DNA of 63,785 nucleotides, counting the filler, from Hausera hauseri (lineage: Eukaryota): the NCBI GenBank assembly GCA_046269625.1. It is 11 parts of 11 records of this genome, joined end to end, with 100 filler letters (N's around TTAATTAATTAA, not from the genome) between each part and the next. Parts side by side here need not be neighbours in the genome. Positions count along the whole stretch, not along the records: positions 1 to 11,909 come from JBJURY010059995.1; 10 more parts are not named here. One strand, written 5' to 3'. A program made the translations under genes and the position numbers. The notes under the pieces were generated by a model. That model was given only the letters and a program-made list of their open reading frames with translations. It searched no databases and was not told the DNA's origin. Positions 1 to 50,080 of this stretch are shown here, piece by piece; the first letter of the stretch is position 1; each line of letters opens with the position of its first letter.

Positions 1-2
1 AA

Positions 3-998
3 ATCCTGAGCTAATAAACAATCATTTTGAATCATATCCTTATAAATTTGATATTGATTATTTACCATATAATGGAATAAATAATCTATTTTTCCGTTAT
101 AATAACTCATCGGTCTTACTTCTGTGGGATGTACGGTCTTCTGAGCGTTTTCTATTTCTATTTCTGAAACATAAATATTTTCCATATTAGTAGCAAAAAT
201 ATCTTCAACTCCACATCTAGTCACTTTTTCCTTTCGGATGAATCTTATAGAGTCTTCAATTTTCGTGGATATCATAATTGTTGGTGTGTCTATTTGTTCT
301 AATTTATCTTCCTCGTTTTCATTTCCAATGTTTCGTCGTGCAAACGGTGTACTGAGTCGTATTCCTCTGGTCACGTTAAATTTTACCTTTTTTAAAAAGG
401 CCAAATTACATTCAACCACCGGTGCAATCCAAGTAATAATTGAATCAGTAGTTCTACAGTACTCAGTGCCGTACTTACAATTTGTTTTGATCATCAATTG
501 TTTTGATTCCACATCGAATGAAATATCCTTTTCAATAATGGTTAATGTATACAGTGCTTGTACAACAACTCTTGCAACACCATCCACAGTGTTTCCATAA
601 CAATCTCCGTTAGCTGTAATAGACCCTTCCTCATTGATTGTATGATAATTTATAGCGTTTACGGCTGCTGCTATTTCGATTTTGTTATTTATTTTTAATT
701 TTCCTCTTTTTGCCGCATCTCTACATTGATCCATTGTTAATTCATGCGGTTCATTTGGGGTGGCCATTAAGATATTAGTTGAATGTCGATGTATTTTTCC
801 ACAGTGCCATTTCTTTATTTGCCTAGTTAGCTTACATTCTAGCGCTTTTACTCGTATGAATCTATTTTCTTGGTATATCCTGTAATTTTTAGTACCTTCG
901 AATATAAGTTTATCAGGCTCTGCATCTGGACATTTTTCTAGATCAACAAGGGAGTATGAAGCTCCAACCGCTGGATAATCGCAGTCATATGCTCGAAA
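3..998 (-). CDS. Chuvirus-type (class III fusion) glycoprotein ectodomain, N-terminal part
   Basis: FRAYDC..SYSLVDLEKC..LECKLTRQIKKWHCG..DQC..GSITANGDC..VVVQA..C..YC..W..C..RCG..YYNGKIDY..IYKDMIQNDC. Cys spacing and motifs match the Jingchuvirales G pattern as I know it. Preceded by the hydrophobic signal WLIILIIILCRGTHG (999-1043). Confidence 0.85.
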
Positions 999-3900
999 AC
1001 CATGAGTTCCTCGACACAGAATTATAATAAGTATAATTAACCATGTTAGATCATTAGTCCCTTGTCTAGGTAATGTACTACTAAGTAGCCTTTGTGCTTT
1101 AGTAAACAATTCAGAAAATTCATGTTCTCCATGACTATCTATTCTATATTCCTGTTCTGATATTTTACTTTCAGTCTTTTGAGGCTTATCAAAATTCAAC
1201 AAATCATTCCATCCTCCAATTCGATCTATATCTGGAGATATATGTGTTTTCAAAATTTCTATGACTACATCAAAACTACTCTCTCTTTCTTCAGTTGTAT
1301 CCGCCGAATTTTTAATTCTCATTGCTAAATATACTAAAATAGTGATAACTCTATCTTTTGTTAAACCTCCTGTCTTAATCCACTTTTGTATTATTTCACT
1401 ATCGTCTATAAGATCTATCCGTTCTGGTAATTGTTCATTTTTCACCGCAGTTTCTAATCGAACCAACGTTCGCTTTAAGTGATTTTCAATATCAAGAGTG
1501 AATGGCTCATCAATTAATAGGTCATTTTCTACTGGAAATAGGGAATTATAAATTCTCCATAAAATGGGTTTGATTTGCCTTGTTTCAAGATCCATTATTC
1601 GAATTTCACTTTTTCTTAGTGCTTTGGTTAAAGTATCAACTTTAACTTGCTCCCAAAGATTTTTCCTTGGACGACCTTGCGGTCTCTTATCAGTTTGTGT
1701 TGTTTCTTGTCTTGCTTGAAGCATATTTAATATATCTTTTACATTAGCTTCATTAATTAGATTTGATTGTTCTACTTCTTGTGAAATATCACCAATAACT
1801 TGGCTTGTTTGTTCATTCGGTCCTTCTGTCCGAACTGCCAATCCAGGAACTGATTGATCGATTTCCATTCTTTCTTGAGGAGCTGGTGTATGCATTTCAT
1901 CTTCAATATCCAGCCGTCGGATAGCTTCGTTTGATCCCAACACATTCTGTATACGCTGTTCTAGTTCTCTTTGCTTTAAGTTTTCGCTGTCTGTCCAATT
2001 TTCTAAGTGTACTGTAACAATTTCAGTTGGATCCATCCCATCCATAATTCCTAATTCTATCCATGGCCTTTCATAATTTAGGACAGTGCGACCCATAAAT
2101 GTCACTTGTTTTATTTGAATGTTCTCGTCGTCATATTGTAATCTTATCACTTCGATAGTTCCAATCATTGGTTCATCAACGTTTATAATAACTTGAAATT
2201 CACTAGTTTTATTTCTATATTTACCATATATATTTAGTTGAACTATTTCATTTTCCTCTAATCTTCTATCACTCATTCTTTTTTGATTATATCGTTGCAA
2301 TATCTCTTTTGCCATACTTGCTTCCAGTATGTGATCTGCGGCTTGTTTTACTAGAAACTTACGTATTCGAAGAAATCTTTCTCTATCTTCAATTAACCAA
2401 TTCATAATTCTATACATTTTATTCATAACAAGTGTGCAAACGTCCTCTTTATCACTGTTATTTAATAGCATAGTTAAATAATATTCAAACTGATCTTCTT
2501 CCGTTCGTATCTCTTCGATCTCCACCCCTGGGCCAAGCATCATAATTCGAGACATCTCTGTGGTATCTTTCCCTTTTTGGCTCTCGTCGCCGTAATTTTT
2601 ATCAAAAATATTTTTACCTTGCTTACTACCACCGACTATGGATTTGCCTTGACCTGTAAACCACGTATACATTCCTTGTATTCGTTTTGTTTTATCCATC
2701 TTTACTTTAGTACAATATTTTGATTTTTTTGACCGATTTTCGTATTTTGTTTTATCGGTGTAGACTTCTAAACCATTTTTATTTTCTTGACCTTTAGTCA
2801 ATACTGGTGATACATCTCTACTTATCATATGGTACGTATTTTCCTGTCGTACCTGATTAGTTGACTTCTCTTGAGTTGCCCTCAATCTTAGTTGTTTTTC
2901 TATTATTGAACCATCTACTCCATATCTCACTAACATCATCTTTTTATCAATTTTCTCATATTCTTCGTTTTCTTCATCTTTCTCCGATTGAATCCAGTTA
3001 TCCAAAAATACATGATATACCGAGCTATCCAATCGCTCTATTATTTCTCGCAATTTTATAAGTAAAACCATCGATATTTTCATTTCAAATCTTATATTTA
3101 ATTTACTAATACCCAGCATTCTTTTTACGCATTCAATCTCTACTTCACAAACATTATCAAATCCTCTTAAATATCGAATTCGTTTAACTTTTAATACACT
3201 AAGTTCTTTATTCATGGACACTTTGTTAAATTCATTTATCGTCTTAATTATTTCGTCAAAGCAATGACTACACTTATATCTTTGGAAAGAATTAATAGAT
3301 CGTCTGACCTTCAATCGTCTTTCTATTTCATTCTCCTCTTCTACTATATTTTCATTTAAGCCAAAACTTCCTGTCTTTAAAGTCTGTTTTAAATACGTTT
3401 CTAACTTCACTTTATTTATCTCAGTACTAGCTATATTTATGTGTGTCTCCGCATTCTCTTTAACTAATTTTGTTTCACTTACAATTTCACGATTCTGTAA
3501 GTCTACCTTTTTTGATAATTTTTCTGGGTCCTTCAATTTCTCTAGTCGTTTTCTTAAATCATGTCCCGATTCGTCTTTGGATTTTTCAGAATCTACTTTA
3601 TCTTCTTCTTTAATCATTAAACATTGCTTCTTAAATACATTTACTTCATTACAACCCATATTATCAGAATTTTCTAAGAAATTAACATCTATTTCCTTTA
3701 CATTATCATTCAATTTTATCCTTAATCCATCTGGTATACTCGCCTCTCCATTTATATCTGTCTCATTTATCTCATTAATTTCTGAACATCCATCATTAAT
3801 TTTTAGCCGGTTCAAGATTTGCAATTCATTACTCACTTCTATATTTTCGACTTTAATCTTCTCAATCTTTCGAGGTAGAGTTAGAATTTTAAGAGTCTCA

Positions 3901-5975
3901 ACACTCGACTCTTCCGTCAGCTCATTATCGCCCAACCTTTTACTGAATTCACTACAATTCCTAGAATCCGGTTCTACATCCGAATTAGATTGTATATCCA
4001 TTGAAAAATTGTCAATATTACATTCACTATTCAATATTACCGTGTTTAAGTCGAGTTCAGAACTCACATTCTCCTCACTTTCATTACTGGAATCAGTGGA
4101 CGGTGCCTTTAAATAATTTTCACTCAATTCATTTGCCATATAAATACATTCATGTTCCAACAGACTTTCAACATCCTTTATTTTTGACACTTCGGTCAGA
4201 TTTATTTCGACTGCATTTAATTCAGTACTTAGTTTATTTTCGTCTTGACAATACCAATTACTACAACTAGCTCCTTGTGGGTAACCGCCATATTTACTTA
4301 CAAACTTCTTTTCTTCAATTTCCCAAAATTTGAATACTTCATTATCAACATCATCATCCTGACTGATTTCTTCTGGGCAACCATATTCATGCATCATTTG
4401 TTTAATAGTTTTTATCTGTTCTGGATACTCTATTTTCCTACAATAACTATCACTCTTAGATTTTTCTTTTGATTTCTTATTCTTTACTCCAAACATACTA
4501 GCTTGATTTCCATGCAATACTTTTAACCTATCCAATTGAGTTCGCATCTCATCCCTTTCGGCTCTCAATTGTTTCAGTTCGAATTCTACATTTACACTAT
4601 TCGAATTTTGATAGTTTTCAACATTACTATCATAATTTCCTCTTGGATTCCATGTATTTTCATAACATTCCTGATTCTCATTGTCCCCCGATTCATTCAA
4701 TTGTGTCTGGAAATTTTGATTATTTTGCATAAGAGTTAGTTTATTATGGATTACCAACAATGGACATTTCTTCCAAACATGTCCTACTTGATTACAATGA
4801 TAACAAAATCTATTTTCATTCATCATACCTACCTGAGTTGGGCAGTTTCGGGCCACATGTCCCCACTGTGCACAAATATTGCACTGCTCAGGTTGTTGAA
4901 TATAAGGTGGCATTAATACCGGCGTTCTTTTTATTTCTGGGCAAGACTTGGCAATATGTCCAAATTTTTTACATTGGTTACACTGAATTGATCCTCTGTA
5001 ATTGACTTTGTCCCTTTCTAACGCCATTGCTTGTTGCTGTGTAGTTTGTGATCGGAGAGGATATCGTTTTTGTTGTTCTGGAGGGTTAATCCATTGTTTT
5101 CTATTCAAATTTGCTCCAGCGGCCATATCTTTAATAGGAGTACCCATTCTTTGTGGTTCTAGATTTGCCCTTATAGGTGGTTTTACAATATTTGGGTCGA
5201 TATTATGAAACAAATTTTGATTAATGTTCTGGTTAGTGCCTACATTCCAACGAGGCGGACCCCAACGCGGTATCGAAGGAACTTGCCAACCGGCCTGTCC
5301 ATAAGACCACGATGGAGTTCGCCACGCTTGGTTAGTCGGCCTAAAATTTCGATTTGGGTTTTGAAGTCTAGGGTTACTATTTAGGGTTTGGTTGTTATTA
5401 AATGAATTTTGATTGATTTGATTTAATTTATTCTCTACGTTTTCAAAATTTATTGCTTTTCTTATTAATTCACTCAAGGTGGAAACATCACTTTCGATCA
5501 ATTGTCTTTGAAGTTTGGGACTATTAAGTCCGGTGATAAAACAATCTATTAGAATTGGCTCTATAGCAAATATTTTAGGAGGACTCTTATCATCTTTATT
5601 TATTTCCTCTTTCTCTAAAGCTTCTTTGTATCGTTTACCTAGCAATTGTAAAGCAAATGCAAACTTATTAACTGATTCCCCAGGCAATTGCACTCTAGAA
5701 CGCAAACTTCTGAGTTTAGCACTAGACGATGGGTCAGGGTCTAGATTCCGTCGTAGTGTATCTACAAATTTATTCCAACTTAATTTCTCCTTCTCCTCAA
5801 TTTGTAAATAAGCCTGCAATGCTATCCCTTCAAGATGGGCAACTAAACGTTTGATTTTCTCTTTTTCATTCCACTCCAACCCATCTGCTTGTGCTGCGTA
5901 TACTAACATAAAATCGTCAAATTCAGACGGTTCACCTGAATACCTGCCTAAATTTAAATTAGCGAACGTAGACAT
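3..5975 (-). CDS. Gag-accessory-envelope polyprotein of a Gypsy-type LTR element (>=1991 aa, 3' end off-window; not in ORF track)
   Basis: Manual codon-by-codon check found no stop from ATG 5975 (frame open from 6113) to base 3. Capsid-like N-terminus (LGRYSGEPSEFDDF...W...KIKRLVAHLEGIA; MHR-like QLPGESVNKF) and three CX2CX4HX4C knuckles at 4764-4982. No D[ST]G protease, YxDD or DDE motifs seen. Confidence 0.9.
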   Translation of the reverse strand, partial: MSTFANLNLGRYSGEPSEFDDFMLVYAAQADGLEWNEKEKIKRLVAHLEGIALQAYLQIEEKEKLSWNKFVDTLRRNLDPDPSSSAKLRSLRSRVQLPGESVNKFAFALQLLGKRYKEALEKEEINKDDKSPPKIFAIEPILIDCFITGLNSPKLQRQLIESDVSTLSELIRKAINFENVENKLNQINQNSFNNNQTLNSNPRLQNPNRNFRPTNQAWRTPSWSYGQAGWQVPSIPRWGPPRWNVGTNQNINQNLFHNIDPNIVKPPIRANLEPQRMGTPIKDMAAGANLNRKQWINPPEQQKRYPLRSQTTQQQAMALERDKVNYRGSIQCNQCKKFGHIAKSCPEIKRTPVLMPPYIQQPEQCNICAQWGHVARNCPTQVGMMNENRFCYHCNQVGHVWKKCPLLVIHNKLTLMQNNQNFQTQLNESGDNENQECYENTWNPRGNYDSNVENYQNSNSVNVEFELKQLRAERDEMRTQLDRLKVLHGNQASMFGVKNKKSKEKSKSDSYCRKIEYPEQIKTIKQMMHEYGCPEEISQDDDVDNEVFKFWEIEEKKFVSKYGGYPQGASCSNWYCQDENKLSTELNAVEINLTEVSKIKDVESLLEHECIYMANELSENYLKAPSTDSSNESEENVSSELDLNTVILNSECNIDNFSMDIQSNSDVEPDSRNCSEFSKRLGDNELTEESSVETLKILTLPRKIEKIKVENIEVSNELQILNRLKINDGCSEINEINETDINGEASIPDGLRIKLNDNVKEIDVNFLENSDNMGCNEVNVFKKQCLMIKEEDKVDSEKSKDESGHDLRKRLEKLKDPEKLSKKVDLQNREIVSETKLVKENAETHINIASTEINKVKLETYLKQTLKTGSFGLNENIVEEENEIERRLKVRRSINSFQRYKCSHCFDEIIKTINEFNKVSMNKELSVLKVKRIRYLRGFDNVCEVEIECVKRMLGISKLNIRFEMKISMVLLIKLREIIERLDSSVYHVFLDNWIQSEKDEENEEYEKIDKKMMLVRYGVDGSIIEKQLRLRATQEKSTNQVRQENTYHMISRDVSPVLTKGQENKNGLEVYTDKTKYENRSKKSKYCTKVKMDKTKRIQGMYTWFTGQGKSIVGGSKQGKNIFDKNYGDESQKGKDTTEMSRIMMLGPGVEIEEIRTEEDQFEYYLTMLLNNSDKEDVCTLVMNKMYRIMNWLIEDRERFLRIRKFLVKQAADHILEASMAKEILQRYNQKRMSDRRLEENEIVQLNIYGKYRNKTSEFQVIINVDEPMIGTIEVIRLQYDDENIQIKQVTFMGRTVLNYERPWIELGIMDGMDPTEIVTVHLENWTDSENLKQRELEQRIQNVLGSNEAIRRLDIEDEMHTPAPQERMEIDQSVPGLAVRTEGPNEQTSQVIGDISQEVEQSNLINEANVKDILNMLQARQETTQTDKRPQGRPRKNLWEQVKVDTLTKALRKSEIRIMDLETRQIKPILWRIYNSLFPVENDLLIDEPFTLDIENHLKRTLVRLETAVKNEQLPERIDLIDDSEIIQKWIKTGGLTKDRVITILVYLAMRIKNSADTTEERESSFDVVIEILKTHISPDIDRIGGWNDLLNFDKPQKTESKISEQEYRIDSHGEHEFSELFTKAQRLLSSTLPRQGTNDLTWLIILIIILCRGTHGFRAYDCDYPAVGASYSLVDLEKCPDAEPDKLIFEGTKNYRIYQENRFIRVKALECKLTRQIKKWHCGKIHRHSTNILMATPNEPHELTMDQCRDAAKRGKLKINNKIEIAAAVNAINYHTINEEGSITANGDCYGNTVDGVARVVVQALYTLTIIEKDISFDVESKQLMIKTNCKYGTEYCRTTDSIITWIAPVVECNLAFLKKVKFNVTRGIRLSTPFARRNIGNENEEDKLEQIDTPTIMISTKIEDSIRFIRKEKVTRCGVEDIFATNMENIYVSEIEIENAQKTVHPTEVRPMSYYNGKIDYLFHYMVNNQYQIYKDMIQNDCLLAQD
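1197..1590 (-). other. Bcl-2-like domain within the polyprotein
   Basis: BH1-like KWIKTGGLTKDRVITILVYL and BH2-like ILKTHISPDIDRIGGWNDLL in correct order and spacing; upstream BH3-like IENHLKRTLVRLE. Confidence 0.65.
1662..1688 (-). other. AT-hook motif within the polyprotein
   Basis: KRPQGRPRK versus AT-hook consensus K/RPRGRPRK. Confidence 0.6.
2001..2250 (-). other. Ubiquitin/SUMO-like domain within the polyprotein
   Basis: VQLNIYGK..FQVIINVDEPM..VTFMGRTVLNYERPWIELGIMDG..IVTVHL resembles the beta-grasp pattern (FxGxxL..ELGxxDG..IxV); no C-terminal GG. Confidence 0.5.
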
Positions 5976-6197
5976 TTTCTGTTCTTCGAGTTGGTTATAA
6001 TTTTCCTCTAATTCAATAGATTCTTGCTCGAAAACTTTTCTCCTAAAATTTTCTTTAACTAAAACCTTTTCCTGGTATCCTTCCAGACTCACCCTTGAAA
6101 ATTTCTTATAGTCTTATGATCAGAAACTATTTGTACGAATGCTACTCAACGAAATTTTCTGTGTCTAATTTTATAGTCTAGTTTTAATGAGATCAGG

Positions 6198-6215
6198 GTC
6201 CTGGCGTGGTCGCCA
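6198..6215 (-). promoter_or_regulatory. Primer-binding site complementary to a tRNA-Arg 3' end
   Basis: Minus strand TGGCGACCACGCCAGGAC, a few nt after ...AAACA and 220 nt before the gag ATG. TGGCGACC is the tRNA-Arg PBS start known from mdg1/412-type Gypsy elements. Confidence 0.85.
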
Positions 6216-6220
6216 AAATT

Positions 6221-6829
6221 TGTTTGTTTATACGTTATTTTATCACTACCCCGCTCCCAGATTAAATTGTTATGATTTACTTGATTTAACTCTAATTAAT
6301 TTTCCCCCTTTTTTCTTTTTTTAACTACTATGATTTTCGTATTCTTTATCACGTAATTTCCACTTTAACACAAACCTTCTTCAAGGCTTTTATCCCCTTG
6401 CTTTTTCTATCGTTATTTATTAATATCCAAACGAACTGGCTAAAGTGCTCCGAACCCGATTGAGATCAGACAAACTAAAATGACTACGATAGTGTAGGCC
6501 CACAAAAAAACAACTAGGTATGATTTTATCAAAATCAACAAGGAGTTTATCAATCACGAGTAGAAAATTGTGGCAATTTAACAAATCGTCCACAATTTTC
6601 TAACTACACACAGACGATTTTTTTCAAGCACAATATTTAGGGCCTTAGTTTACTTTCTTTCTTTCTAAGAAAGGAAATATGACAATTAAAGTATAATAAT
6701 AAAAAAATTAAGAAAAATTACCACCCACTTGAAAGTAATTTGTTTATTTCTTCTCTTTTTCTATTCCCCAAAAGTCGAAACTCTACAAGCTCGATTGACC
6801 ATCAACGTCGGTTAAGATTTTAAATAACA
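6221..6829 (-). repeat. Putative LTR (~609 bp)
   Basis: Minus strand starts TGTTATTT right after a purine tract and ends AAACA just before the PBS (TGTT...AACA inverted termini). No second copy is in the window, so the 5' boundary is inferred. Confidence 0.6.
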
Positions 6830-6842
6830 TTCTCCCGTTTTC
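6830..6842 (-). promoter_or_regulatory. Putative polypurine tract
   Basis: Minus strand GAAAACGGGAGAA directly before TG. Confidence 0.55.
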
Positions 6843-7173
6843 ATAAATAAGATAACTCGATGATTCTTCCTTTATTTTTTGTCAGTCTTTCTATTTCTAC
6901 TTTGTATATATATATTACTAATTAAAAAAAATGTTAACAATGTGTCTCATGCAATTGTCTTGAAAATTGCTATACAGTGAAATAATCAACCATCTCCACA
7001 GTTCCCATAACAGGAACTGTGCCTCTGAGGCAATCAGATTTACAATAAAAGAAATTTAATGAGAATATTTAATTATTGCCTCAGAGGTAATCAAATTTAC
7101 AATACAATCAGATCTACAACACAAGAGGGGGGACAAAAAAATATCGTCTTCCACTGGCGATAAAAGGTACAGT

Positions 7174-9057
7174 TCATGGTGAATCTAATACGATTTGATC
7201 AGTCCATGATGAAAAGTCGTCAAATAATGAGCGAGTGGGTGTTGGTGTAGGAATGGGTTTCTGAGGGCTTCCGATGGGTAACAAAGTATCTGTATCTGAA
7301 ATATCACCTGATTTTGATTGGGTTGGTATTGTGGAAGTAGGAAAAGTGGTTACATCTGTGCATAATAAGGGGTTAGTGATATTTGTAGTTTGAGATATCT
7401 GAAAGGTTTTTTTTGCTTGGTAATGGAAGGAATTGAGTGGTAAAGATTGCATAGCGGGGCTATCAGCATCTGTCGGTACGCGAAGAGGTGGTAAGAAAAG
7501 ATCTGAGGTAGGGTTTTCGAGGAAAGAAAAGTGTTCCCAATTACATTGTGGGATTGAGGATAGGGGTTTATACGGTAGTGTATTTGCCAAGTCAGATAGG
7601 GCTTGTGGACGCCATGGGGGTAAAAGCCAGTTAAATCGTCGTCTTTCTTTGTAGATGTCATGGACAATAAATATCATGTATTCAGCGTCCATTTTACTTG
7701 GTATAAAGTAATCAGTCGATTTGTATATGGCAGGAAAAGGTTTAAAGCCATTTTGACTATAGTTGAGGTCTATATACCCTAGTAATAGCTTGGCTGAAAG
7801 ATGCCAAAGGTTCAGGAAGTAGAGTGGGTCGAAAGTAACCAATATTCTGCCATATATGGCACGTTGAACATGGGCTCTACAGAGGGCGAAATCTGGTGCA
7901 TGATCAACATCATCTAAAGATATACTATGACAATGTTTATCCACATTATCAATTTTTTCTCTAGGGCAAACAAATGTCTTGTATTTTATGTTAAGTGGTC
8001 CATCTGGATCGGTACTAAGATCACCCAAGTAAATATGAATTACTACAGGAAGACTGCCTGAAAATGCCACGGCGTAGCCGGCGAAAATAATTTCCTGAAT
8101 AGGGTACGGATAGGGTGTTCGAACATAAGAATGTGGGATAGGATTCGGGGGTTGGGGTAGCCAGTCAAGTTCATTTAGGGGCACTTGTCCATTAATTGAT
8201 GTATCCAAATAACGGCGCCAAGGTGGAATATCCACATATTCTAGTTCTATATACGTAACCGAATTCTCTCTCATTAGGATGGTAAAGGAATGTGAACTCC
8301 AGACATCTGCTGTCAAAAGAATAGATTTGAACGAAGATAAGTATACTTTAAATATGGGTAGGGGTGGTCTGTGGATCTCTAATACAACAGATCCTTTAAT
8401 AACAGATAAAAGCATATCTTTTGGTTGTAGTGGAAAATTCTGAATGGAAAATTGTTGGTCTAAGATTTGTCGCATGGGGAATGGCCCATAATTGTGTGAC
8501 CAATAAGAAATCAATATACAGCGATCTTGCAGGCTATTACTTTTGAATTTATTAGGGATTGTGAACACAGAAGGATATTTAAGTGTAATGTTGCGAAATA
8601 ATGTATCAAAACGTACCGAGCGATATGTGGATCTAGAACGTAAAATTTCAAAAAGGAAAGGAATAGATGATCCCTTTGGCAAAAAAATGGGAATGCGTGG
8701 CATTTGTTGCAAGTTGGCAAATTGGATACTTTGCCCGATATTACGGATTGGTGGGGCATACATTAAAAAATAGGAGGTATTAGAATAAGACGTAGAAGCG
8801 AGGGGTAAGAGAAGTAAGGGAGGGTGAATTGTATCCATAGTTTGTTCAACGGATGCTTCACCACTTTCGATGCGGATAGTAGACTGCACATAGGTTGATC
8901 TCTGGAGCGGTATTGATGTCATACGGAGATATCTAACTTCACTGATGCAATAAGTCACTGAGATCACCTTGATGCTTGAGTGATCTAAAAAAGTAAAGTG
9001 GGTGTTAGACCACTGTGCCCAAGCCTGAAAACAATAGGCCGTGGCCGACTTTAATTG
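7174..9057 (-). CDS. Unknown Pro-rich 627-codon domain, probably expressed by stop-codon readthrough
   Basis: Track ORF 7174-8967 is in frame with ORF 9058-9393 and open up to its TGA; context TGA CAA TTA. Confidence 0.7.
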   Translation of the reverse strand, partial: QLKSATAYCFQAWAQWSNTHFTFLDHSSIKVISVTYCISEVRYLRMTSIPLQRSTYVQSTIRIESGEASVEQTMDTIHPPLLLLPLASTSYSNTSYFLMYAPPIRNIGQSIQFANLQQMPRIPIFLPKGSSIPFLFEILRSRSTYRSVRFDTLFRNITLKYPSVFTIPNKFKSNSLQDRCILISYWSHNYGPFPMRQILDQQFSIQNFPLQPKDMLLSVIKGSVVLEIHRPPLPIFKVYLSSFKSILLTADVWSSHSFTILMRENSVTYIELEYVDIPPWRRYLDTSINGQVPLNELDWLPQPPNPIPHSYVRTPYPYPIQEIIFAGYAVAFSGSLPVVIHIYLGDLSTDPDGPLNIKYKTFVCPREKIDNVDKHCHSISLDDVDHAPDFALCRAHVQRAIYGRILVTFDPLYFLNLWHLSAKLLLGYIDLNYSQNGFKPFPAIYKSTDYFIPSKMDAEYMIFIVHDIYKERRRFNWLLPPWRPQALSDLANTLPYKPLSSIPQCNWEHFSFLENPTSDLFLPPLRVPTDADSPAMQSLPLNSFHYQAKKTFQISQTTNITNPLLCTDVTTFPTSTIPTQSKSGDISDTDTLLPIGSPQKPIPTPTPTRSLFDDFSSWTDQIVLDSP

Positions 9058-9350
9058 TCATAAGATAGTTGTATAAACACCATCGGTTTGCCTATTCACA
9101 ATCTCGTCGGGCACAAAATAATTCAAATTAAAGTTAATATCATATTGTGGTATATTTTCATATTCGTTTAGGTACTCTGCATAAAATGTCTTATTGGATC
9201 TCTTAAGATACACGGCAAGTGAACAGCATATTATGATTGCTATACCTGAAATAATAATTACAACCACCCATGTATAGAAGAGAGGGAATGAATTTTGTTT
9301 AGATTTCACAAATGCACTAGTTGTTGAGGCCGGTATACGTGAAAAAAAAA
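9058..9350 (-). CDS. Transmembrane anchor and cytoplasmic tail of the integrase-fused glycoprotein (frameshifted at a T9 run)
   Basis: WVVVIIISGIAIIICCSLAVYL followed by KRSNK and Tyr motifs YENI/YTTI; overlaps the end of the upstream ORF at the homopolymer 9342-9350. Confidence 0.65.
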
Positions 9351-11746
9351 TAAAAGGTAAATTTTTGTTTCCAATTTGAAAAATTTGTTTCAAATAATAT
9401 GGGTTTTTCCAACGGTTTGGGAATTACAAGACGTGTTGTATTGCGTTCATGCGCTGCTGACTCAGACAAGGATTGGTTTGGTGTAAAGTTAACTGTTGTA
9501 GTTAAAGGGTCCATTTTTGTAGGGACAATTCGTGAGTCCAACGTAATGACTTTTGGTCTTATGTGTGGAGGTGAATTAAATGAGAATAAATGTTTTAAGT
9601 TCAGCGTCGTGTTAATTATAGGTTGACGTGATGAGTTTACCAAGATTGCGAACTGAATCCGACATACAGAGGGTCGAAAATGGATATCTTCTTTCTTTAT
9701 TACTACAAGCCGAGGTGAAGACGGTCCCACGGACACCAGCCAATGTTTTCCTATGTATATAGCTTCCAATACTGGAGGGTTCCACCGTGTTCGTAAAACA
9801 TCAATATAAGAATAGGGGATTGCTTTCCACAAAAATGATCCCAATGTAAATAAAGGTTGAACAGGGGGAATCAACCAATCGTGTATGAAATATATGTTTG
9901 TCTCGGATATTGGAATGGTAATTCTGACCCATGTCGGTTTATTATAATATATTGGAAAACGTGGTAAATCAAGGGATAATTTTGGAACAATAGTCCGTCT
10001 AGTAAAATTTAGTCTAATTCCTTCAATCTGTACTAAAACTCCGGATTGTCCTTCAGTCCATAAGTACTGATAAACCAAGAATGGTTCTCTGAAGATCCGA
10101 AACGAAGGTGTTTGTAAAGGTGGCGTTTCCCACCTGTCGACTATTGTCGTTGAACCTTGGTCAAAGAAGGCGAAAGTTTGTTGCACTGTGGGCTTGTCCA
10201 CAGGATAAAAACATGCTCCGCCAGGTGACTCAATTGTACATAGGCCAAGAAATTCTACTGACCGGTTATCCCAAATATGAAATATTAAAACTTTAACAGT
10301 GTTAGTCGTCTGAGGAATATTTGTGTGTAAATAAGTTATCTGGTTTTGATGTCTCCAACCCATATATATTGCTGGTCGACATTCGTAATTTCCTAAGCAG
10401 TGAAGTATGGTAAAAAGGAAAGTTGCGTATAGAATACGACTTTCAAATAATGTAGAGCAAATTGGTTGAGTAGGATCTGTTACTTTTGTTTTATCTTTCT
10501 TTTCATCTTCCGGTTGTTTTATTTCTGGATCTTTACTTTTCGATATGGGCGGAGAAGTCAATTTGCACCATTCTGCTGCTAGACAAACAATTTCATTACG
10601 TTTGCCTACTTTCTTTTTAATAAAAATATTGTTATCTGTAACTCGTTCAACCTGATAAGGTCCTTTCCATGGACGAGTTAGTTTGGGTGATAGACCTTTC
10701 TTTGTTACATGGTCGTAAACCATTATCCAATCATCTACTTGAATTTTATGGGGTCTGGCATGTTTATCATATTGCTTTTTATATTGTTTTTGGTAGTCCA
10801 ATGTTAGTGACTGAGCTAAAGCCCAAGCCTTCGTTAATCTTTCCTTTAGATAGTTTACATAATCTGGTTCACTTTTTGCCAATGCTTCCTTTGGTATAAA
10901 TTCTAAATCTATGGGTAGTAATGGTTCTCTTCCATACATCAAATAGAATGGAGATTCATGCGTTGCTGTGTGTGGCGCAGATCTCAAAGCGAACATACAG
11001 GCTGGGATAAATAGATCCCAATCATCTTGTCGATCGTTTGTTACTGTTGCCAGCATTGACAATAGTGTCCCATTTAATTTTTCTACCATTCCATCTGTTT
11101 GTGGGTGATATGCAGCGGTTTTAAGTTTGTATATAGTAAATAGTCTGCACACTTCTTCAAACATGTGATTTATGAATTCTCTTCCTTGATCTGTTAATGT
11201 TTTTCGTGGAGCACCATACCGAAAAACTATTTCTTCAACAAACAAAGCTGCAACAGTAAATGCCGTCTTATCAGGCATTGGAAAGGCTTCCGGAAATCGT
11301 GTCAAATAATCAATGAATACTAGTATATATTGGTTGCCACTTTGTGTTTTATGTAATGGACCGACAATATCCATTGCAGTAAATTCCATTGGTCTTGCTG
11401 GTGGTGTTATAGGGTGTAATTGCGGTTTACTGCGTAGTCCTCTAGCTCGTCTAGTTGCACAGATTTGACAATCTTTACACCATTGTTCCACATCCTGCTG
11501 AACAGTTCTCCAATAATATTTTGTTTTGATTCTTCCTAACGTTTTTTTGAAAGCCGGATGACACGCCAACATTCCATCATGTTCTTGGTGTAGTATGTCT
11601 TTTCGTTTTTCCAATGGTATTACAATTAGTTGTTTATTACGGTGCCAATATCTTACTAGATCATTAATAATAAGATAGTGTGATCCTTGATTTAATAAAT
11701 GGTGCATCAAGGCTTTCTCTTCCGTATTAATTTTCTTTGTTCTCAA
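9317..11746 (-). CDS. Gypsy/Ty3 integrase with ~370-aa glycoprotein-like C-terminal extension (pol 3' end; 5' part frameshifted and truncated by contig end)
   Basis: HHCC (H..HP..C..C), MDIVGP, DYLTRF, TDQGREF, YHPQTDGMVE, WKGPY; then hydrophobic ILYATFLFTILHCLG (10391-10435) and several N-X-S/T sequons. Confidence 0.9.
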   Translation of the reverse strand: MRTKKINTEEKALMHHLLNQGSHYLIINDLVRYWHRNKQLIVIPLEKRKDILHQEHDGMLACHPAFKKTLGRIKTKYYWRTVQQDVEQWCKDCQICATRRARGLRSKPQLHPITPPARPMEFTAMDIVGPLHKTQSGNQYILVFIDYLTRFPEAFPMPDKTAFTVAALFVEEIVFRYGAPRKTLTDQGREFINHMFEEVCRLFTIYKLKTAAYHPQTDGMVEKLNGTLLSMLATVTNDRQDDWDLFIPACMFALRSAPHTATHESPFYLMYGREPLLPIDLEFIPKEALAKSEPDYVNYLKERLTKAWALAQSLTLDYQKQYKKQYDKHARPHKIQVDDWIMVYDHVTKKGLSPKLTRPWKGPYQVERVTDNNIFIKKKVGKRNEIVCLAAEWCKLTSPPISKSKDPEIKQPEDEKKDKTKVTDPTQPICSTLFESRILYATFLFTILHCLGNYECRPAIYMGWRHQNQITYLHTNIPQTTNTVKVLIFHIWDNRSVEFLGLCTIESPGGACFYPVDKPTVQQTFAFFDQGSTTIVDRWETPPLQTPSFRIFREPFLVYQYLWTEGQSGVLVQIEGIRLNFTRRTIVPKLSLDLPRFPIYYNKPTWVRITIPISETNIYFIHDWLIPPVQPLFTLGSFLWKAIPYSYIDVLRTRWNPPVLEAIYIGKHWLVSVGPSSPRLVVIKKEDIHFRPSVCRIQFAILVNSSRQPIINTTLNLKHLFSFNSPPHIRPKVITLDSRIVPTKMDPLTTTVNFTPNQSLSESAAHERNTTRLVIPKPLEKPILFETNFSNWKQKFTFYFFFTYTGLNN

Positions 11747-11909
11747 ATTCTCTGATTATTTGTAATTCTGGATCCTTTTCCTGTAAACATATTAATTTCT
11801 AAATATCGGTCTCAGTCAATTGATTATCGTGTAAATCTTTATGAAATATTAACATTTGAGAAACATGAATTTGTTTACATTCAGTTTCGAGATTTTCTAA
11901 TTCTTGTTT

Positions 11910-12009
11910 NNNNNNNNNNNNNNNNNNNNNNNNNNNNNNNNNNNNNNNNNNNNTTAATTAATTAANNNNNNNNNNNNNNNNNNNNNNNNNNNNNNNNNNN
12001 NNNNNNNNN
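11910..12009. other. Artificial contig linker (also 16419-16518, 20766-20865, 25000-25099, 29829-29928, 35734-35833, 40151-40250, 45156-45255, 50081-50180, 58127-58226)
   Basis: Identical N44-TTAATTAATTAA-N44 with stops in all six frames. Confidence 0.98.
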
Positions 12010-13109
12010 TATCGAGAACAATGTCGTATTGGTTAATGTAAACATACGCCTCTGAGTATATTGGATCCGAAAATCCCGTTAACTGCATCATATCATGTAG
12101 AAGAATCGATTTTTTAACAAGATTAACTAAAACGATTTGAAAATCAGGCTTCGACAACAGAGGTTTTAAAAGCTGAAGTTTGTGTTGGATGTCATCAAAT
12201 CTAGTGGACTTGATAAAATACGTGGAAAGATTATTCAACTGAATTGGAGCTTTGTACAGATTCACAGAAGAATACTTTTCAATTAACGAGCTAAATACGT
12301 CGACGGATTCAAAACAAAATGCGTGTAAAATACAACACTTTATTAACACATCTCTGTCCAACATCGAGTTTTTTGAAAATACATCTATAACGTTTGTGTG
12401 TGACTTTGTGTCGAGAGAGTTTAATAAAATTTCTATACCGCGACTAACAAGAATTTCGAAAAACTGGTAAGAATCAATTTTCAACAGGCAATAATTGATG
12501 ATTTCGGAAATACTTTTAACAGGTTGTTCTGAATAGCGTCCATTGATGAGTAGATTTTTCACAACCTTTCTATTAACTGTCATGTCGGAAAATTGAATAA
12601 CTTCATGAGCAGCTTTAAGAAGATTATCTAATGGACCAATACAAATTAAAAGATATTGCCTGAATGATGCATCAGGTGACTTGTATAGCAAATTGTGAAG
12701 TATTGGAAAAGGAGGATTCAACATAGAAATTCGGGAAATCATTGATTCCAAATTTTCTTTATCCAATTTACAGTTGATAGAAGGAAGCAATATGTCTACA
12801 GCATCAAACAAGTGCCTCCGAGCAAGTTTGAAAACGGTAATTGCAGCAACATTTTGATCTTTGAAAGGTTTGAGTTTTGAAAGCATCAAAGAAAGTAAAT
12901 CTTTCGATGCGCCACTATGAGCCAATTCGACATAACAGTCATAATCATACAATTGATAATTTTTTTGATCAACACATTTCTCAAAAGCAATCTTTAATAT
13001 TCCTGAACACTTATTAACATCGAAGATTGAAGCATATGACATAGCGAGGAAAGCGTAATCCTGATAGCGCAACGCAATTTTATTCTGTTTCCTGATATCA
13101 GAGTATCGC
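12010..13109 (-). CDS. Unknown helical region, C-terminal part of the chimeric ORF (truncated at contig end)
   Basis: Open in frame with the ferlin part; no motif recognised. Confidence 0.5.
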
Positions 13110-14125
13110 TCAATTTCGTCTTGTGACCAAAAATGCTCTTTCTTTCGAATAACCATCATATTCTCGACAGGAAGATAGCTAAACAGAAAAACAAATCTCC
13201 AATTGAAATTTCCTTCTCCATCCAGGGATCTGTAATGAACATCCGTTTCTTGCTTTTCATCAATACCAGCCAACCATCCCTTAACATAAATATCCGACAT
13301 TTTCTCACCTAACAAATTTTCCTCTTCTAAAATAACGTCTTTCGTATTCCAAACAATAATACGTAATTCATATTGTCTAGCTTTCCGTTGAGTTATGTCA
13401 AATGGCGATCCAAGGTTTTCTATTGCACGTGGAAATATATCGATCCAACATAATAATTTTCCTTGTTCAATTCCTGGTTGTAAAGGGCTGTAAAGTGGCC
13501 TTGTTTCAACATGTTCCTTAGTTAATTGAAACAAGTTTAAAACGTAAAGAGCAAGTCGTTCTTTACTTGGACCGTAATGAGGATTGCTTTTATGCTTTTC
13601 AAACGAAGAAAGTTTAAACTGACGTTGACCAATGCATAACGTTTCGTCATCTTTGAACGTTGGTGGTGGAATGAAATTGTTTTCACAGAAGGTTGTTAAT
13701 ATTTCAAGAGGCTTAAAACAGTCCCTCCATTGATTTGGTCCGTTAATGCAATACGTTTGGGGGATACCACAAGTTGCGCGGAATTTCGTTAGTAAACGAT
13801 TTTCTAAGTCAATTGATGTCTCACCAATAACGTCATCAGTGCTCATTGAATCATAATCTTTAATTCTGATGTATAGATCTTTACTTATTGGAATTGTACA
13901 TTTGATTTCAAACATTCTGCCGAATTCGGGACACAAACAATTTGGTATATAATTGTATTTGTTACTTACGATTTTCTTACCAAGTTGAACTTCAACGTAT
14001 GGATCAGACAGTCTACTTGGGTCATTAGGTTGAAGTTCAACCGCTTTTACAACATATACACGTACAACACATTCAATTGGTTGTGTAGATGGTAAACCTC
14101 TTTCAAGATATTTTGGCGGCAACTT
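13110..14125 (-). CDS. Ferlin C2E and partial C2F region, middle of the chimeric ORF
   Basis: VRVYVVKAVELQPND..DPY, DDVIGETSIDLENR, EHVETRPLYSPLQPGIEQG, YELRIIVWNT, MSDIYVKGW, QETDVHYRSLDGEGNFNWRF. Confidence 0.92.
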
Positions 14126-14294
14126 ATATTCACATCCACTAAATCTAAACATTACATGCCGTTGAACATGTATTCTGTAACCAAACACTCTCTTAATCTT
14201 TGGCTGGAGCATTAGTAAAAGAAAAGAAATAAATTCATTGCGTATACATCCACAAATTTCAGTTAATTTTTGTCTCAAATTATTATGGAATTCA

Positions 14295-16369
14295 GGACTT
14301 AAATTTTTAATTCCAGCATTGATGATACTTGTATAATCACTGCCTTTGGGAAGAGCATATGCATAAAAATATTGATCGAAACCATTCGTTACGGTGATAC
14401 ATGGTGTACCAATGCTGAGTTTCAAAATTGAATCATGATAGATGAATGCAACATATTGACTTTTGATCAAGGCTAATCCATCATTAGAATTATTCACATA
14501 TAAGCCCTTTGTACCCCCTTGCAACTCTGCAGCCAGCTGTTGAACATAATCGTAGGGAGGCTGTTTCAAGAACTGGGTAACAGATGACTGATTCACTGTG
14601 CATGATTTATAAGTGGTTTGTTTTTGGAAATCTTCAAGTGTTGTTATGGCTGATTGCAACCGTAAATTAGTTCGAATTGCACCATAAACTGCAACGTATG
14701 ACAACAGAACAATAATATTAAATATCCACCAAAATACAGCAAGGATTCGTCCGGAAGGTCTGTCGGGTAAAGCAGTGGTTACACCTTGAACAAGTGACCC
14801 GACAAAAAATAAAATTGAGTCTTTAATTCCAAATGATGCTCTATTTGGACTCAGTAAATTGATTAGCGTCAAAACTACTGAGTAGACAATGGTACTTAAT
14901 ATTATTATTACCCACACGAGCCAGTTGAAAACAAGAATAAAATTGAACATTGTTTCATAATTGCTTTTGGTTACTTGTTTGTAGACTATTGCAAGTTTGT
15001 ATGCTTTGAACGTATCGGTCATATCGATATACGGAAGATATGACTTAAAGTACGTAATAGGTCCAACGACAATATCAGCTTGCCCATTTTGTGCTATTAA
15101 AAGTATACCATTTAACTGATTGTTGATTAGCATTCCAGGAAAAGTATTGTAATAAGTTATATTGTATGAAACATTTAAGTTATTCAATATTTGTTCGATC
15201 ATTTCAATACTGTAACCAGGTTTAGTACTGTTTGGAATGACGAACGGATTTTCCACGAGCGCAGCTATTCTGAATGGTACTGCTCTCATTATCTTTAAAA
15301 TATTAGCCGTCGTAGGTTGAAATAAAGGTAGAGTTGGTTGATTGACTGTTACATTACCATTAAGAGTTGCCTCTACATTGCCAACTTGTTGGAAGGAATT
15401 GTTAAAAATGTATACATTTACACCCCATGTTTTCCTGTAAATTGCACTGGTATTAAATGTTAAAATTCCGGTTGATAATGTAACATCTCCTGGTAATGGC
15501 GCATTACATGCATCATAGTCAAGCAGGCGTATCAAAGAATAAGCAATATCACTCAAAATCATATCCCTTTCCCCTACAAGTCTGAGGGAACCGTTGAAGT
15601 TTGATGCACATGTTTGACAGAAATCATATGCAGTAAAGTTATTTGAGAAAAACACGTTCAGTCCAATTTGTTGGTAATTTGTGGCAAATCCGCTGTAAAA
15701 GACGAGCCAACGATATTTCCAATTCAACACTCTCCTTTTATCACAGATCGAAATAAGCTCTACTGTTTCATTGAAATTTAAGTCCGTTGCGATATTTTTT
15801 ATAGATCCGGTTTGTAAAATTGTTGCAATTTGCTCGGCTGTTGAAGAATTGTAATATTGAATGATTTTTATGGCGCCGCTGAATGTACCAAAATAGGCCA
15901 ATGGATTGAATACTCTCCACGGTGTTAAGCTGTCAACGATCCCTGCGTCAATAACAATGATAATTGTTTTGTTTACGTCATTGGCCAACATGTTATTCAT
16001 AACTGATGTGACGTTTTCGACTTTGACGTCGTAAACAAATGGCACAAACTTACATAAATCAGCATAGTCGTCTGATGAAATTTCATTAATCAATGCTGTT
16101 AAAAAAATTTTATAGTCGAATAGAAGTTTACATAGTGGGACAATGGGGCAGTGAATAAAAGCAACAGAAGGGAAAAAACGGTGACTTAAACAAAAACTGC
16201 GGTATGCTTTAAAATCAACAGAGAGACTTACCAAATCATTCCAAAACGAGTCAAACAAAATCGCGAATATGTGTCCATTGTATAATGTCTCATTATTTAG
16301 CCAAAATTTCTGACACCATTTGTTGTTCTTTGCTTTAGTAGACTGGAATTCGACTGAATCTTGCGACAA
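14295..16369 (-). CDS. Divergent ionotropic glutamate receptor-like region (ATD-S1-M1-P-M3-S2, no M4), N-terminal part of a chimeric ORF
   Basis: ENPFV, GYSIEMI, ADIVVGPIT, M1 FNWLVWVIIILS, pore DSILFFVGSLVQG, SGRILAVFWW..SY, YAYALPKGS. Confidence 0.85.
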
Positions 16370-16518
16370 AATAATAAACGGGTTAAATATAATTAATTTA
16401 ACCTCGATTTGTTGGTGCNNNNNNNNNNNNNNNNNNNNNNNNNNNNNNNNNNNNNNNNNNNNTTAATTAATTAANNNNNNNNNNNNNNNNNNNNNNNNNN
16501 NNNNNNNNNNNNNNNNNN

Positions 16519-25099: not shown

Positions 25100-28000
25100 T
25101 GAAAATCACAGAACCCTCTATGGACACGATTATACAACGCTTCTTCCACGACAATGTTATAGACACACAACGACCATCAGAATTTTTACGCACATCTTTG
25201 GCACATCTGCACACTCTCGGTGTCACTAAAGAACACTACCCCGAACTATTGCGTCATTACTTTCTTAACGCGTTACTCATCCAAATTCGGGCTTTATTTA
25301 CCGTGGTGGAGGACTCCACGGCTATTGAAAAATTGGCCGAATTAGCCGCTAAACACATGATGTTCTACAATTACATTTACCACCAGTCGTTTCGGCGGCA
25401 GTTGCCCCTAATGATATTCAATCCAATAACATATCAATAGAACAACAACTCAATCAGCTATGTGCTAAAAATACCGCACTAAACGCAACCATTAACAATA
25501 TAAACAACAAATTGATCTAGCTTTTCCTGTCTCGGCGAAGGGATTTTCTTGCTGAACGCGCCAATTCTGCATCTAAAAACCGGTCACCATCGCCTGCGCG
25601 GTCATCAATCTGCTATTATCAAAACAGATTCAATAAGAATGCCAAGAAATGCAGCCTAGGATGCAAATTTTACAACAGAAGTTTTTCTTCAGACACCGTT
25701 GTTTGCATTTACCACGCAAAGTTGAAAAATCAAGCCCGTAAATGCATTCCAGGCTGCACTTTTAAACTAGATACGAACGACGGACACTACCTTTTCTTCT
25801 AATAGTCGTCCTAGTTCACCTTTTCAAAAAAACTAAATTTGCCGCAAGAAGTCATGCAAACTCTGGTAAAGGCACTACTTTACTTTCTGAATGCCGACAC
25901 GACTTTTCTGCTGTCTTTACTCTAAAGGCTCCAATCACCGCTCCTACGACGCAATCCGTTGATTTCCTCATTGATACAGGTGCAGCGATTTCCTTATTAC
26001 CACAATTTTTTCCTGTACAAAATTCACCATTCAGAATTAAACCCTTACACACCGCTTCAGGTCAACCGCTGCACATTTCTGGCACGGCTAAATTATCTTT
26101 TATCTTACCAAAATTTCCTTCACCTTTCCACTGGACGTTCACAGTTGCCAACGTCGAAATGACAATTTTAGGGTCCGATTTCCTATCACATTATAATTTA
26201 TTGGTTGACTGCAGTTAACGATGTCTGAGGAGCGGCATCACTAGCAGCATTGCTGAGCATGCCAATAGCATTTCGACTACGGTGCAATCAATCGAGACAC
26301 AGAGGTCAATTTTGGGAAAATCAATAAATAATTCGAATTTCCATAACAATTATTCAATTCGTAAATTTTTAAATAATAATATTGATCTTCTATCGATGTT
26401 CGATGTCGATAATTGTGGTACTTCCACCAATGTTCATTCACTTGACGAAATCACTTTATCCAACACCATTTTAAATTCGACCATCTTACACCAAATATCA
26501 CTTGTGTGCACATCACAAAACAATTCACAAATCGCAGCCGCTACTACTCAAGCTGCTTCATCATCATCATCAAATCTATCACAGTTGCCTACAACTTTAC
26601 AGCAATTCCGTGCCACATCATGTCCACGCGTACTTAAAAAGATCGTTCGTTTACATATACAAGCAGCACTGTACATCACAATTACACAGCATTAACGACC
26701 AATATGCCAAAAGATACGACCACTGTCACCTTGTCGTAGACAGGCTGCAGAAGCCGAATTTCTTGAACTAGAACGCTCCGGAATTTTACGCCGTCCCAAA
26801 TCTCCTTGGTCGTCACCTTTACACATTGTACAAAAAAGGACTGTACTTTTAGACCATGCGGTGACTGCCGCCAGTTGATCAACTTGACAATCATGGATGC
26901 ATACCCCTTGACACTCATCAAGGACATCCTGCATCGCCTTAATTCAACTATCATTTATTCGACCAACGATTTGGCCAAAGCATACCACCAAATACCGGTG
27001 GCACCCGAAGACATAAAAAAACTGCCGTTACTACTTCTTTTGGCCTCTACGAGTACCTGTTTATGCCATTCTGTTTGCGAAATGCCGCACATACTTTCCA
27101 GCGACATATCGACTCAATTCTCTCAGATTTCCCGTTTGCGCACCCTTAAATTGATGATATTCTGATCGTTTCGTCTTCGGTCAAACAACACGAGGAACAC
27201 CTTTGCGCGATATTCCAACGCCTTCACCACCATAATCTCCAAGTCAATTTCGACAAATGCCATTTTTCAAAAAACTCATCAACTTTTTAGGCCACGTTAT
27301 TTCACCAGACGGCCACTCTCCTCAACCAGACCGAGTTGAAGCCATTAAAAATATCCAATTGCCACGTACAACCACCGAAATGCGCAGCTTCCTCGGTACC
27401 CTACACTTTGTATATAAATATGTACGATATTGCTCCGAATTGACACCACTATTTGCACACTTAAGCGGTGGCAAAAAACATCAGCCAATCCAGTGGACAC
27501 CTGAGTTGGTAGACAAATTTGATAAATTACGCGAAGGAAATAAGACCATCGACATTCTCGCTTTCCCCAAGCCTGATGCAGAACTCATCCTTACTACATA
27601 CGCTTCAACAACTGAGGTAGGTGCTGTACTTCACCAGATCTACAAAGGATAAAATCAACCGCTAGAATTTTTCTCTCGCAAGCTAACACCCCCTGAAACC
27701 AGATACTCAACGTTCGATCGAGTTATTGGCCATTGTTCTTGCTTTAAAGCATTTCTCCCACCTACTTGTCGCTCGCCATTTTACTATACAAACCGATCAC
27801 AAAACCTTACTTATAACATCATAGCTATGAAACATGCTTCCACACGCCAAGAATGACAAATATCATACTTGTCGACTTTTAACTCCGACATAAAACATAT
27901 TAATGGGGGTAATAAATTGGTGTCCGACTTTTTATCTAGGTCGGTTAGTTCGATTAATTTTTCACAGATTTTTACGCTAGCTCAACTTTAACAGAACCAG

Positions 28001-34790: not shown

Positions 34791-34914
34791 ATTGCCATAT
34801 AATTTGAACTATAAATATTTAAATATAGGTAAATAAAAAATCAATATTTTTACTTATTCATGTTTAAAGAGATAAAGTGATTGTGTTAAATGATAAACGA
34901 GAATAAATAAGTTG

Positions 34915-38775: not shown

Positions 38776-38821
38776 TTTATGTTACAGTCGCCTTTACATT
38801 CCCAAATTTCCTGACACCCTA

Positions 38822-49974: not shown

Positions 49975-50080
49975 CTGATGAAACTAAACGTAAGGAATGG
50001 ATTAAAAAATCCGGAAAAATAACACTTTGTGGTCCGTTAAATCTGGATTTCTTCGATCAACCGAAATATCTATTGCCGGG
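49975..50080 (+). pseudogene. Polinton major capsid protein internal fragment
   Basis: RKEWIKKSGKITLCGPLNLDFFDQPKYLLP. Confidence 0.65.

What the first reader, a model, noticed from the sequence alone, without database searches (positions are those of the whole stretch)
6198..6842. Internal PPT-LTR-PBS junction linking a pol-bearing unit to a gag-env unit
Seen: on the minus strand, integrase and extra ORFs are followed by PPT, a ~609-bp TG..CA segment, a PBS and then gag. Three readings are possible. (a) One giant element ordered LTR-gag-env...pol-extra-LTR, circularly permuted by repeat collapse or tandem insertion. (b) Two partner elements sharing an LTR, one supplying enzymes and one supplying capsid plus envelope, i.e. 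a bipartite retroelement. (c) An assembly chimera through a shared LTR. Either (a) or (b) would be an unusual architecture.
Basis: partly seen in the sequence, partly recalled or inferred. Interest (0 to 1): 0.85.

Follow-up and report, generated by a model that had tools for sequence, protein, structure and literature searches.

The report
Rotated gag-env-pol flatworm-type retroelement
The junction is real, but the two halves are most likely the tail and the head of one large virus-like jumping gene whose envelope gene sits between its capsid and enzyme genes, a layout already published for flatworm elements, probably joined end-to-start through its terminal repeat by the assembly.

Summary
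The junction is there as described on the minus strand: integrase, extra ORFs, a purine tract (6842-6830), a 609-bp TGTT..AACA segment (6829-6221), a tRNA-Arg-type primer site (6215-6198), then gag. It lies in an 11,909-bp contig holding no protease, RT or RNase H.

Both halves trace to the same family. Relatives encode gag, a gB/mononegavirus-type env, protease, RT, RNase H and integrase in one ORF, followed by the same extra cargo. One relative has the same 17-nt primer site. The window's env and integrase fall at compatible places in separate trees. The contig is most likely a rotated view of one element of about 15.5-19.5 kb, broken in the env-pol middle (reading a, about 0.88).

That order is published: planarian Burro (PMC6431247) and GAG-ENV-POL errantiviruses (PMC13524379). 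This scan has noted the class before on other DNA. Nothing supports a bipartite pair. LTR pairs, target-site duplications and a read spanning the junction were not shown.

Small extras: a Bcl-2-like domain, a second membrane protein after integrase, and an ISG20-like exonuclease ORF that appears to lack most catalytic residues. New member of a known kind.

The parts
10556..11755 (-). Integrase (H2C2 zinc finger 11620-11444, rve core 11398-11132, C-terminal part); the 3' end of pol. The last ~150 nt of the contig (11756-11909) are not in one open frame with it.
   Evidence: Pfam; 42-50% identity to integrases of env-in-frame polyproteins; frames
9317..10435 (-). In-frame extension after integrase: likely signal peptide plus ectodomain of a second type I membrane protein
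   Evidence: Read by eye and by position against relatives, which end with signal..ectodomain..transmembrane..tail. The window's signal was below my hydropathy cut-off
9058..9423 (-). Frame holding the likely transmembrane anchor (9267-9211) and tail of that membrane protein. It is a different frame from the integrase ORF, so the gene is broken here in this contig
7174..9057 (-). Separate ORF (581 aa from the ATG at 8919): divergent homolog of the ISG20/REXO-like DEDD exonuclease ORF of relatives; catalytic residues appear mostly lost
   Evidence: BLASTP E 3e-6 and 4e-6 to L002 and L001 ORFs; alignment; profile hits ISG20L2 E 1.3e-11; atlas leads only
6830..6842 (-). Polypurine tract
   Evidence: Sequence
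6221..6829 (-). Putative LTR, 609 bp, TGTT..AACA, two AATAAA signals; single copy in the window
   Evidence: a 96.5%-identical variant contig in run X1
6198..6215 (-). Primer-binding site, tRNA-Arg(UCG/UCU) type
   Evidence: One mismatch in 12 to tRNA-Arg UCG/UCU ends listed in PMC13524379 supplement 1; 17 nt identical in L004 just before its gag-env-pol ORF
4764..5975 (-). Gag: capsid-like region from ATG 5975 and three CCHC knuckles (4982-4764)
   Evidence: Pfam zf-CCHC; matches gag of P0152, P0154, L002 (E 1e-15 to 1e-17)
1590..4763 (-). Long charged, likely coiled-coil or unstructured spacer of about 1050 aa; no family assigned
   Evidence: No Pfam hit
1200..1589 (-). Bcl-2-like domain
   Evidence: Six-sequence profile hits Bcl-xL E 3.2e-5; model pLDDT 72; all listed fold hits are Bcl-2 family, probability 0.99-1.00 but E only 0.004-0.015
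3..1052 (-). N-terminal half of env (gB/mononegavirus-type fusion glycoprotein), in frame with gag, cut by the contig end
   Evidence: Pfam PF24664 E 1.7e-25; run contigs reach past the end

Best explanation
The contig is most likely a rotated view of one large Ty3/gypsy LTR retroelement with the order LTR - primer site - gag - Bcl-2-like - env - (protease, RT and RNase H inferred, absent from the contig) - integrase - second membrane protein - exonuclease-like ORF - purine tract - LTR. Shown: each part listed and its order on the contig, and relatives that carry homologs of both halves in one continuous ORF. Inferred: the assembler ran from the element's 3' end through the shared LTR into its 5' end and broke in the conserved env-pol middle, where many diverged copies tangle. 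A genomic tandem sharing one LTR, or a one-LTR circle, would give the same junction. Inferred mechanism: transcription from the 5' LTR; one polyprotein whose env signal and anchor thread it into the ER and back so that pol ends up cytoplasmic; release by signal peptidase and the element's protease; tRNA-Arg priming of minus-strand DNA and purine-tract priming of the plus strand; env would allow cell-to-cell spread; the Bcl-2-like domain would dampen apoptosis; the exonuclease-like protein would act as a non-catalytic RNA-binding or decoy protein.
For: 1) Of 28 env relatives scanned (chosen mostly for length from 150 listed), all 28 carry PF24664 and 11 have a protease domain in frame after env; 4 of these run on through RT, RNase H and integrase. 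2) 3 of 4 metagenome loci have env-PR-RT-RH-IN in one ORF; the fourth ends in env. L002 matches the window's gag, env, integrase and ORF2 in that order. L004 has the same 17-nt primer site before its ORF. 3) An independent integrase search gave P0152 and P0154 (47-48% identity), which are gag-env-pol polyproteins that also match the window's gag and env. 4) Integrase tree, 38 rows: the window is sister to 12 rows (92/79), of which 8 carry env and 4 begin downstream of where env would lie. Env tree, 32 rows: compatible position. With the same 10 intact polyproteins, env and integrase identities track each other (Spearman 0.88, 45 pairs) and all 10 window points lie within 1.4 SD of that line. 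5) Run X1 lays 4349 contigs of 85-100% likeness on 1-6670, so the family is large and diverse; summed depth is highest at the broken left end. 6) The order is published, and shared-LTR tandems are common in LTR elements (PMC5932611 passages).
Against: The window's own env and integrase were never seen on one molecule with pol between them; no listed piece spans the laid stretch. The LTR has no second copy here and no target-site duplication was seen. Tree support for the window's place is moderate and not starred, and its env is on a long branch. The rank correlation of the window's own env and integrase identities is weak (rho 0.32, p 0.37, n 10). The closest relatives are only 30% (env) to 50% (integrase) identical, apart from one env fragment at 54%. 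The region before env is longer than in most relatives.
Confidence: 0.88

Rival explanations
1. Bipartite system: a gag-Bcl2-env element without pol and a pol-integrase element without gag-env share one LTR and complement each other.
For: Not excluded directly, because the contig stops inside env and just before integrase. P0002 and P0011 end at or just after env, and P0002 sits on a 20-kb contig. Seven more distant env proteins scanned show no protease.
Against: All near relatives that extend far enough keep env and pol in one ORF. The env-less near integrase proteins are N-terminally incomplete, and two have env-bearing cluster mates. Both halves occupy compatible tree positions.
Confidence: 0.04
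2. Chimera of two different elements that share only a similar LTR, joined by assembly or by recombination.
For: Short-contig assembly of a very diverse family. In run X1 a zero-difference contig stops 2 bases from the LTR's 3' end, which suggests a graph branch there (record 6).
Against: Env and integrase are about equally distant from the same relatives, so any chimera would be between close kin with the same layout, which leaves the architecture unchanged. Run X1 holds 0.66 of the sampled words of 4500-11900, which spans both sides.
Confidence: 0.08

Closest known systems
Burro / GYPSM1 giant gypsy-like LTR retrotransposons of planarians (review PMC6431247: passages and section 7 read in full; Grohme et al. 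2018 not held)
   Same: Gag with three CCHC knuckles, long charged region, Bcl-2-like domain, then env related to mononegavirus fusion proteins in frame before pol; accessory ORFs.
   Different: Smaller: LTR 609 bp and an estimated 15.5-19.5 kb against more than 30 kb. No MATH, BIR, ankyrin or ubiquitin-like Pfam hit in the contig. The review does not mention a membrane protein after integrase or an exonuclease ORF for Burro. No Burro sequence was compared directly.
GAG-ENV-POL HSV/gB-type errantiviruses, including Smed_errantivirus_1-6 (Chary and Hayashi, eLife, PMC13524379: abstract, section 5 part 1 of 2, passages and supplement rows)
   Same: Same gene order and env type. The six Schmidtea env rows in supplement 2 resemble the window's env family by eye. 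Nine flatworm elements are listed, with up to 215 copies.
   Different: No primer site is listed for the Schmidtea elements, whereas this one has an Arg-type site. The window's lineage branches outside most relatives I found. Similarity to the paper's sequences was judged by eye only.
DEDDy exonuclease ORF3 of bdelloid rotifer Juno and Vesta LTR retrotransposons (PMC5408684, passages)
   Same: A 3'-5' exonuclease-family ORF downstream of pol.
   Different: The rotifer ORFs are RNase D-like with intact catalytic residues. Here the family is ISG20/REXO-like, and the window's copy appears to keep only one of four acidic residues.

Membership tests
Ty3/gypsy LTR retrotransposon | Purine tract, TG..CA terminal repeat and tRNA primer site flanking the internal region | tested here: met
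Ty3/gypsy LTR retrotransposon | Two LTR copies with a target-site duplication | tested here: inconclusive
   One copy in the window; run contigs too short; no host genome held
Ty3/gypsy LTR retrotransposon | Pol order PR-RT-RH-IN with a gypsy-type integrase | tested here: inconclusive
   Only integrase is on the contig; the order is seen in relatives
GAG-ENV-POL gB-type errantivirus / Burro-like | Env in frame directly after the gag region | tested here: met
   ORF 6113-3: zf-CCHC and PF24664 in one frame
GAG-ENV-POL gB-type errantivirus / Burro-like | Pol follows env within the same element | tested here: inconclusive
   Not on this contig; met in near relatives; tree positions compatible
GAG-ENV-POL gB-type errantivirus / Burro-like | Env of the gB/mononegavirus class | tested here: met
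   PF24664 Monjiviricetes_fusion E 1.7e-25
Burro in the strict sense | Gag with CCHC knuckles and a Bcl-2-like domain before env | tested here: met
Burro in the strict sense | Total length above 30 kb | tested here: not met
   LTR 609 bp; missing middle 3.1-7.1 kb in 11 relatives, giving an estimate of 15.5-19.5 kb
Burro in the strict sense | RT or integrase phylogeny with named Burro sequences; planarian host | not testable with these tools
   No named Burro sequence came from any call; host not determined
Active DEDD exonuclease (ORF 9057-7174) | Four catalytic acidic residues plus His or Tyr | tested here: not met
   Alignment: D-x-E of motif I absent, motif II acidic residue and motif III His absent, last Asp aligned; only three sequences at 18-27% identity, so the register is uncertain

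The most novel reading that the evidence does not exclude
A bipartite envelope-bearing retroelement: one partner supplies capsid, Bcl-2-like protein and envelope, the other supplies the enzymes, a second membrane protein and a catalytically dead ISG20-like protein, and both use one LTR and primer site.
Probability: 0.04. Interest if true: 0.8.

Novelty: new member of a known kind. Interest (0 to 1): 0.2.

Why it matters
The finding removes an apparent oddity. An internal purine tract-LTR-primer site junction is what a collapsed or tandem multi-copy LTR element gives, and the env-before-pol order is already in print. What remains is modest. It is a fairly deep-branching lineage of GAG-ENV-POL elements with a clean, short LTR and an Arg primer site. 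Its ISG20-like ORF stays open for 627 codons while apparently losing its catalytic residues (my estimate 0.4 that it is a functional pseudo-nuclease). If so, it would be a candidate RNA-binding or silencing-decoy protein. My searches found no paper on that ORF type or on the second membrane protein in these elements, but the library lacks most subscription papers.

Tried and rejected
No host genome was held, so LTR pairs and target-site duplications could not be sought. A word-index search with the env half among longer proteins found nothing, whereas the exhaustive HMMER search did. Viral contigs and prokaryote genome contigs gave no relative. The first env alignment was too diverse to search with. 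The tool for looking up contigs of a protein was closed, so LTRs and flanks of the ENA relatives (P0152, P0154 and others) were not seen. Sequencing runs: no RNA holder was listed, which says nothing about expression. Contigs were laid only on 1-6670, so the purine-tract side and the whole junction were not covered; summed depths are not copy numbers. ORF 9057-7174: no Pfam hit, no hit in the word-index search, none among earlier notes by sequence; its model was unusable (pLDDT 37) and the fold search on it is meaningless. The Bcl-2-like region alone gave no PDB hit and no Pfam Bcl-2 hit for the window member; only the profile and the model did. My hydropathy scan did not flag the window's two presumed signal peptides. 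The atlas search for env did not complete. I rejected the idea that the 1503-codon ORF at 11954-16462 is the missing pol: it lies on another contig and holds host gene pieces. Rows left out of the integrase tree: 17 near-identical cluster mates and hits aligning over fewer than 250 residues.

Full report
Setting. The window is 11 unrelated contigs joined by N-padded linkers. The finding lies in contig 1 (1-11909). No host genome is held.

Observation. On the minus strand the contig reads: integrase ORF 11755-9317 (Pfam H2C2 and rve), a short frame with a transmembrane segment (9423-9058), a 627-codon ORF (9057-7174), a purine tract (6842-6830), a 609-bp segment from TGTT to AACA (6829-6221), a 5-nt spacer, an 18-nt primer site (6215-6198), and a 2037-codon ORF running off the contig end. 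The primer-site core occurs once in the window's two strands. Its first 12 nt differ at one base from tRNA-Arg(UCG/UCU) ends tabulated in PMC13524379 supplement 1. The 609-bp segment has no second copy in the window. The contig has no protease, RT or RNase H, so 'pol-bearing' means integrase only.

The gag-side ORF. It holds a gag region, three CCHC knuckles (Pfam scores two), about 1050 residues with no family, a Bcl-2-like domain and the first half of an env. Env matches PF24664, the Monjiviricetes fusion glycoprotein (E 1.7e-25). A six-sequence profile of the domain before env hits Bcl-xL (E 3.2e-5). Its model (pLDDT 72) returns only Bcl-2-family folds in the listed rows, with weak E-values. 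The window sequence alone gave no such hit.

What follows env in relatives. An exhaustive search with the Bcl-2-like and env region found 154 proteins at E up to 0.001. I scanned 28 of the 150 listed, chosen mostly for length. All 28 carry PF24664, 11 have a protease in frame after env, and 4 of these continue through RT, RNase H and integrase. A metagenome scan gave 4 loci. L001, L002 and L004 each have env-PR-RT-RH-IN in a single ORF of 2693-3703 codons; L003 ends within env. L002 matches the window's gag, env, integrase and, weakly, the 627-codon ORF, in that order. L004 has 17 nt identical to the window's primer site just before its ORF.

What precedes integrase in relatives. A separate integrase search among long proteins gave 28 hits, 4 with PF24664 on record. 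The five best by identity (44-50%) are P0153, P0154, P0152, P0155 and P0156. P0152 and P0154 are whole gag-env-pol polyproteins that also match the window's gag and env. P0156 has a 3735-aa cluster mate with env. P0153 and P0155 begin at or just before RT and cannot be scored. The top hit by E-value (P0151, 33% identity, several integrase stretches) has no env.

One lineage or two. In a 38-row integrase tree the window is sister, at 92/79 support (not starred), to 12 rows: 8 with env and 4 incomplete (17 cluster mates and short hits were left out). In a 32-row env tree it falls with P0001 inside the same group, outside P0007 and the core and apart from L004 and P0017. With 10 intact polyproteins the two trees are compatible, env and integrase identities correlate (0.88 over 45 pairs), and the 10 window points lie within 1.4 SD of the line. 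Against this, the window's own rank correlation is weak (0.32, p 0.37) and its env branch is long. The part missing between the contig's two ends is 3.1-7.1 kb in 11 relatives, so the element would be about 15.5-19.5 kb with two LTRs.

Why the contig is rotated. Two runs hold the stretch, at 0.66 and 0.14 of sampled words; the better one may be the source sample. On 1-6670, X1 lays 4349 contigs (485 at 99% or more, the rest 85-99%) and X2 lays 400. Some reach beyond the laid stretch's ends, both runs show loose ends before the left end, an LTR variant with 10 differences and one gap in 286 bases exists, and no listed piece spans the stretch. This fits a large, diverse family whose conserved middle breaks the assembly while the LTR links tail to head (inference). 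A real shared-LTR tandem, which is common in LTR elements (PMC5932611 passages), or a one-LTR circle (general knowledge) would look the same.

Extra cargo. Relatives end their polyprotein with a second signal, an ectodomain, a transmembrane segment and a tail. In the window the anchor is in another frame from the integrase ORF, and the contig's last 150 nt are also out of frame, so this copy or assembly path is slightly broken. The 627-codon ORF is a distant homolog of the exonuclease ORFs of L001 and L002 (E 4e-6 and 3e-6; RNase_T in those two). The joint profile hits ISG20L2 and ISG20, a signal probably carried by the two relatives. In the three-way alignment the window lacks the motif I D-x-E and the motif III His. 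Atlas features point to DEDDh clusters at lead level only (0.83-0.87). A model failed.

Comparison with what is known. The review PMC6431247 (section 7 read in full) describes planarian Burro elements with gag, three knuckles, Bcl-2-like, env related to mononegavirus fusion proteins, then pol, in one ORF, and calls it the first in-frame env between gag and pol. PMC13524379 (abstract, section 5 part 1, passages, supplement rows) reports GAG-ENV-POL gB-type elements in Nematoda, Bryozoa and Platyhelminthes. Exonuclease ORFs after pol are known in rotifer elements (PMC5408684 passages). The element works like these and meets the features I could test, except Burro's size. No named sequence was placed in my trees, and the host is not established; a flatworm is suggested only by these likenesses and by unchecked earlier notes. 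Earlier notes of this scan describe the same class on other DNA; I used them as leads to the eLife paper.

Verdict. Observation confirmed. Reading (a) about 0.88, chimera of different elements 0.08, bipartite 0.04. New member of a known kind; interest 0.2.

Noticed in passing
window 12010-16418 (contig 2), minus strand: One stop-free frame of about 1469 codons joins intron-free pieces of an ionotropic glutamate receptor, a ferlin (C2 and dsrm_Ferlin), an unassigned stretch and a coatomer beta C-terminal piece. It looks like a mosaic of host mRNA fragments; earlier notes on the same assembly report LTR-linked mosaics of this kind.
   Followed up: partly
window 37107-38776 (contig 7): Degenerate tandem array with a unit of about 106 bp.
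   Followed up: no
window 25100-29828, 45256-50080, 58227-63785: Three decayed, mutually related gypsy-type pol remnants, judged by eye from translations and shared repeats.
   Followed up: no
window 29929-35733 and 50181-58126: Fragments that look by eye like Polinton/Maverick DNA polymerase and integrase genes; names recalled, not from a library search.
   Followed up: no
window 42277-43593 (contig 8): Spectrin-repeat host gene piece with long uninterrupted frames.
   Followed up: no
P0007 (accession HBK71150.1): A full env-pol retroelement polyprotein is deposited as a hypothetical protein of a Flavobacteriaceae metagenome-assembled genome, likely eukaryotic contamination of that bin.
   Followed up: no
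P0152, P0154, P0198, L001, L002: These relatives carry two or more aspartic-protease-like domains, some after integrase, and P0153, P0155 and P0198 carry ankyrin repeats.
   Followed up: no
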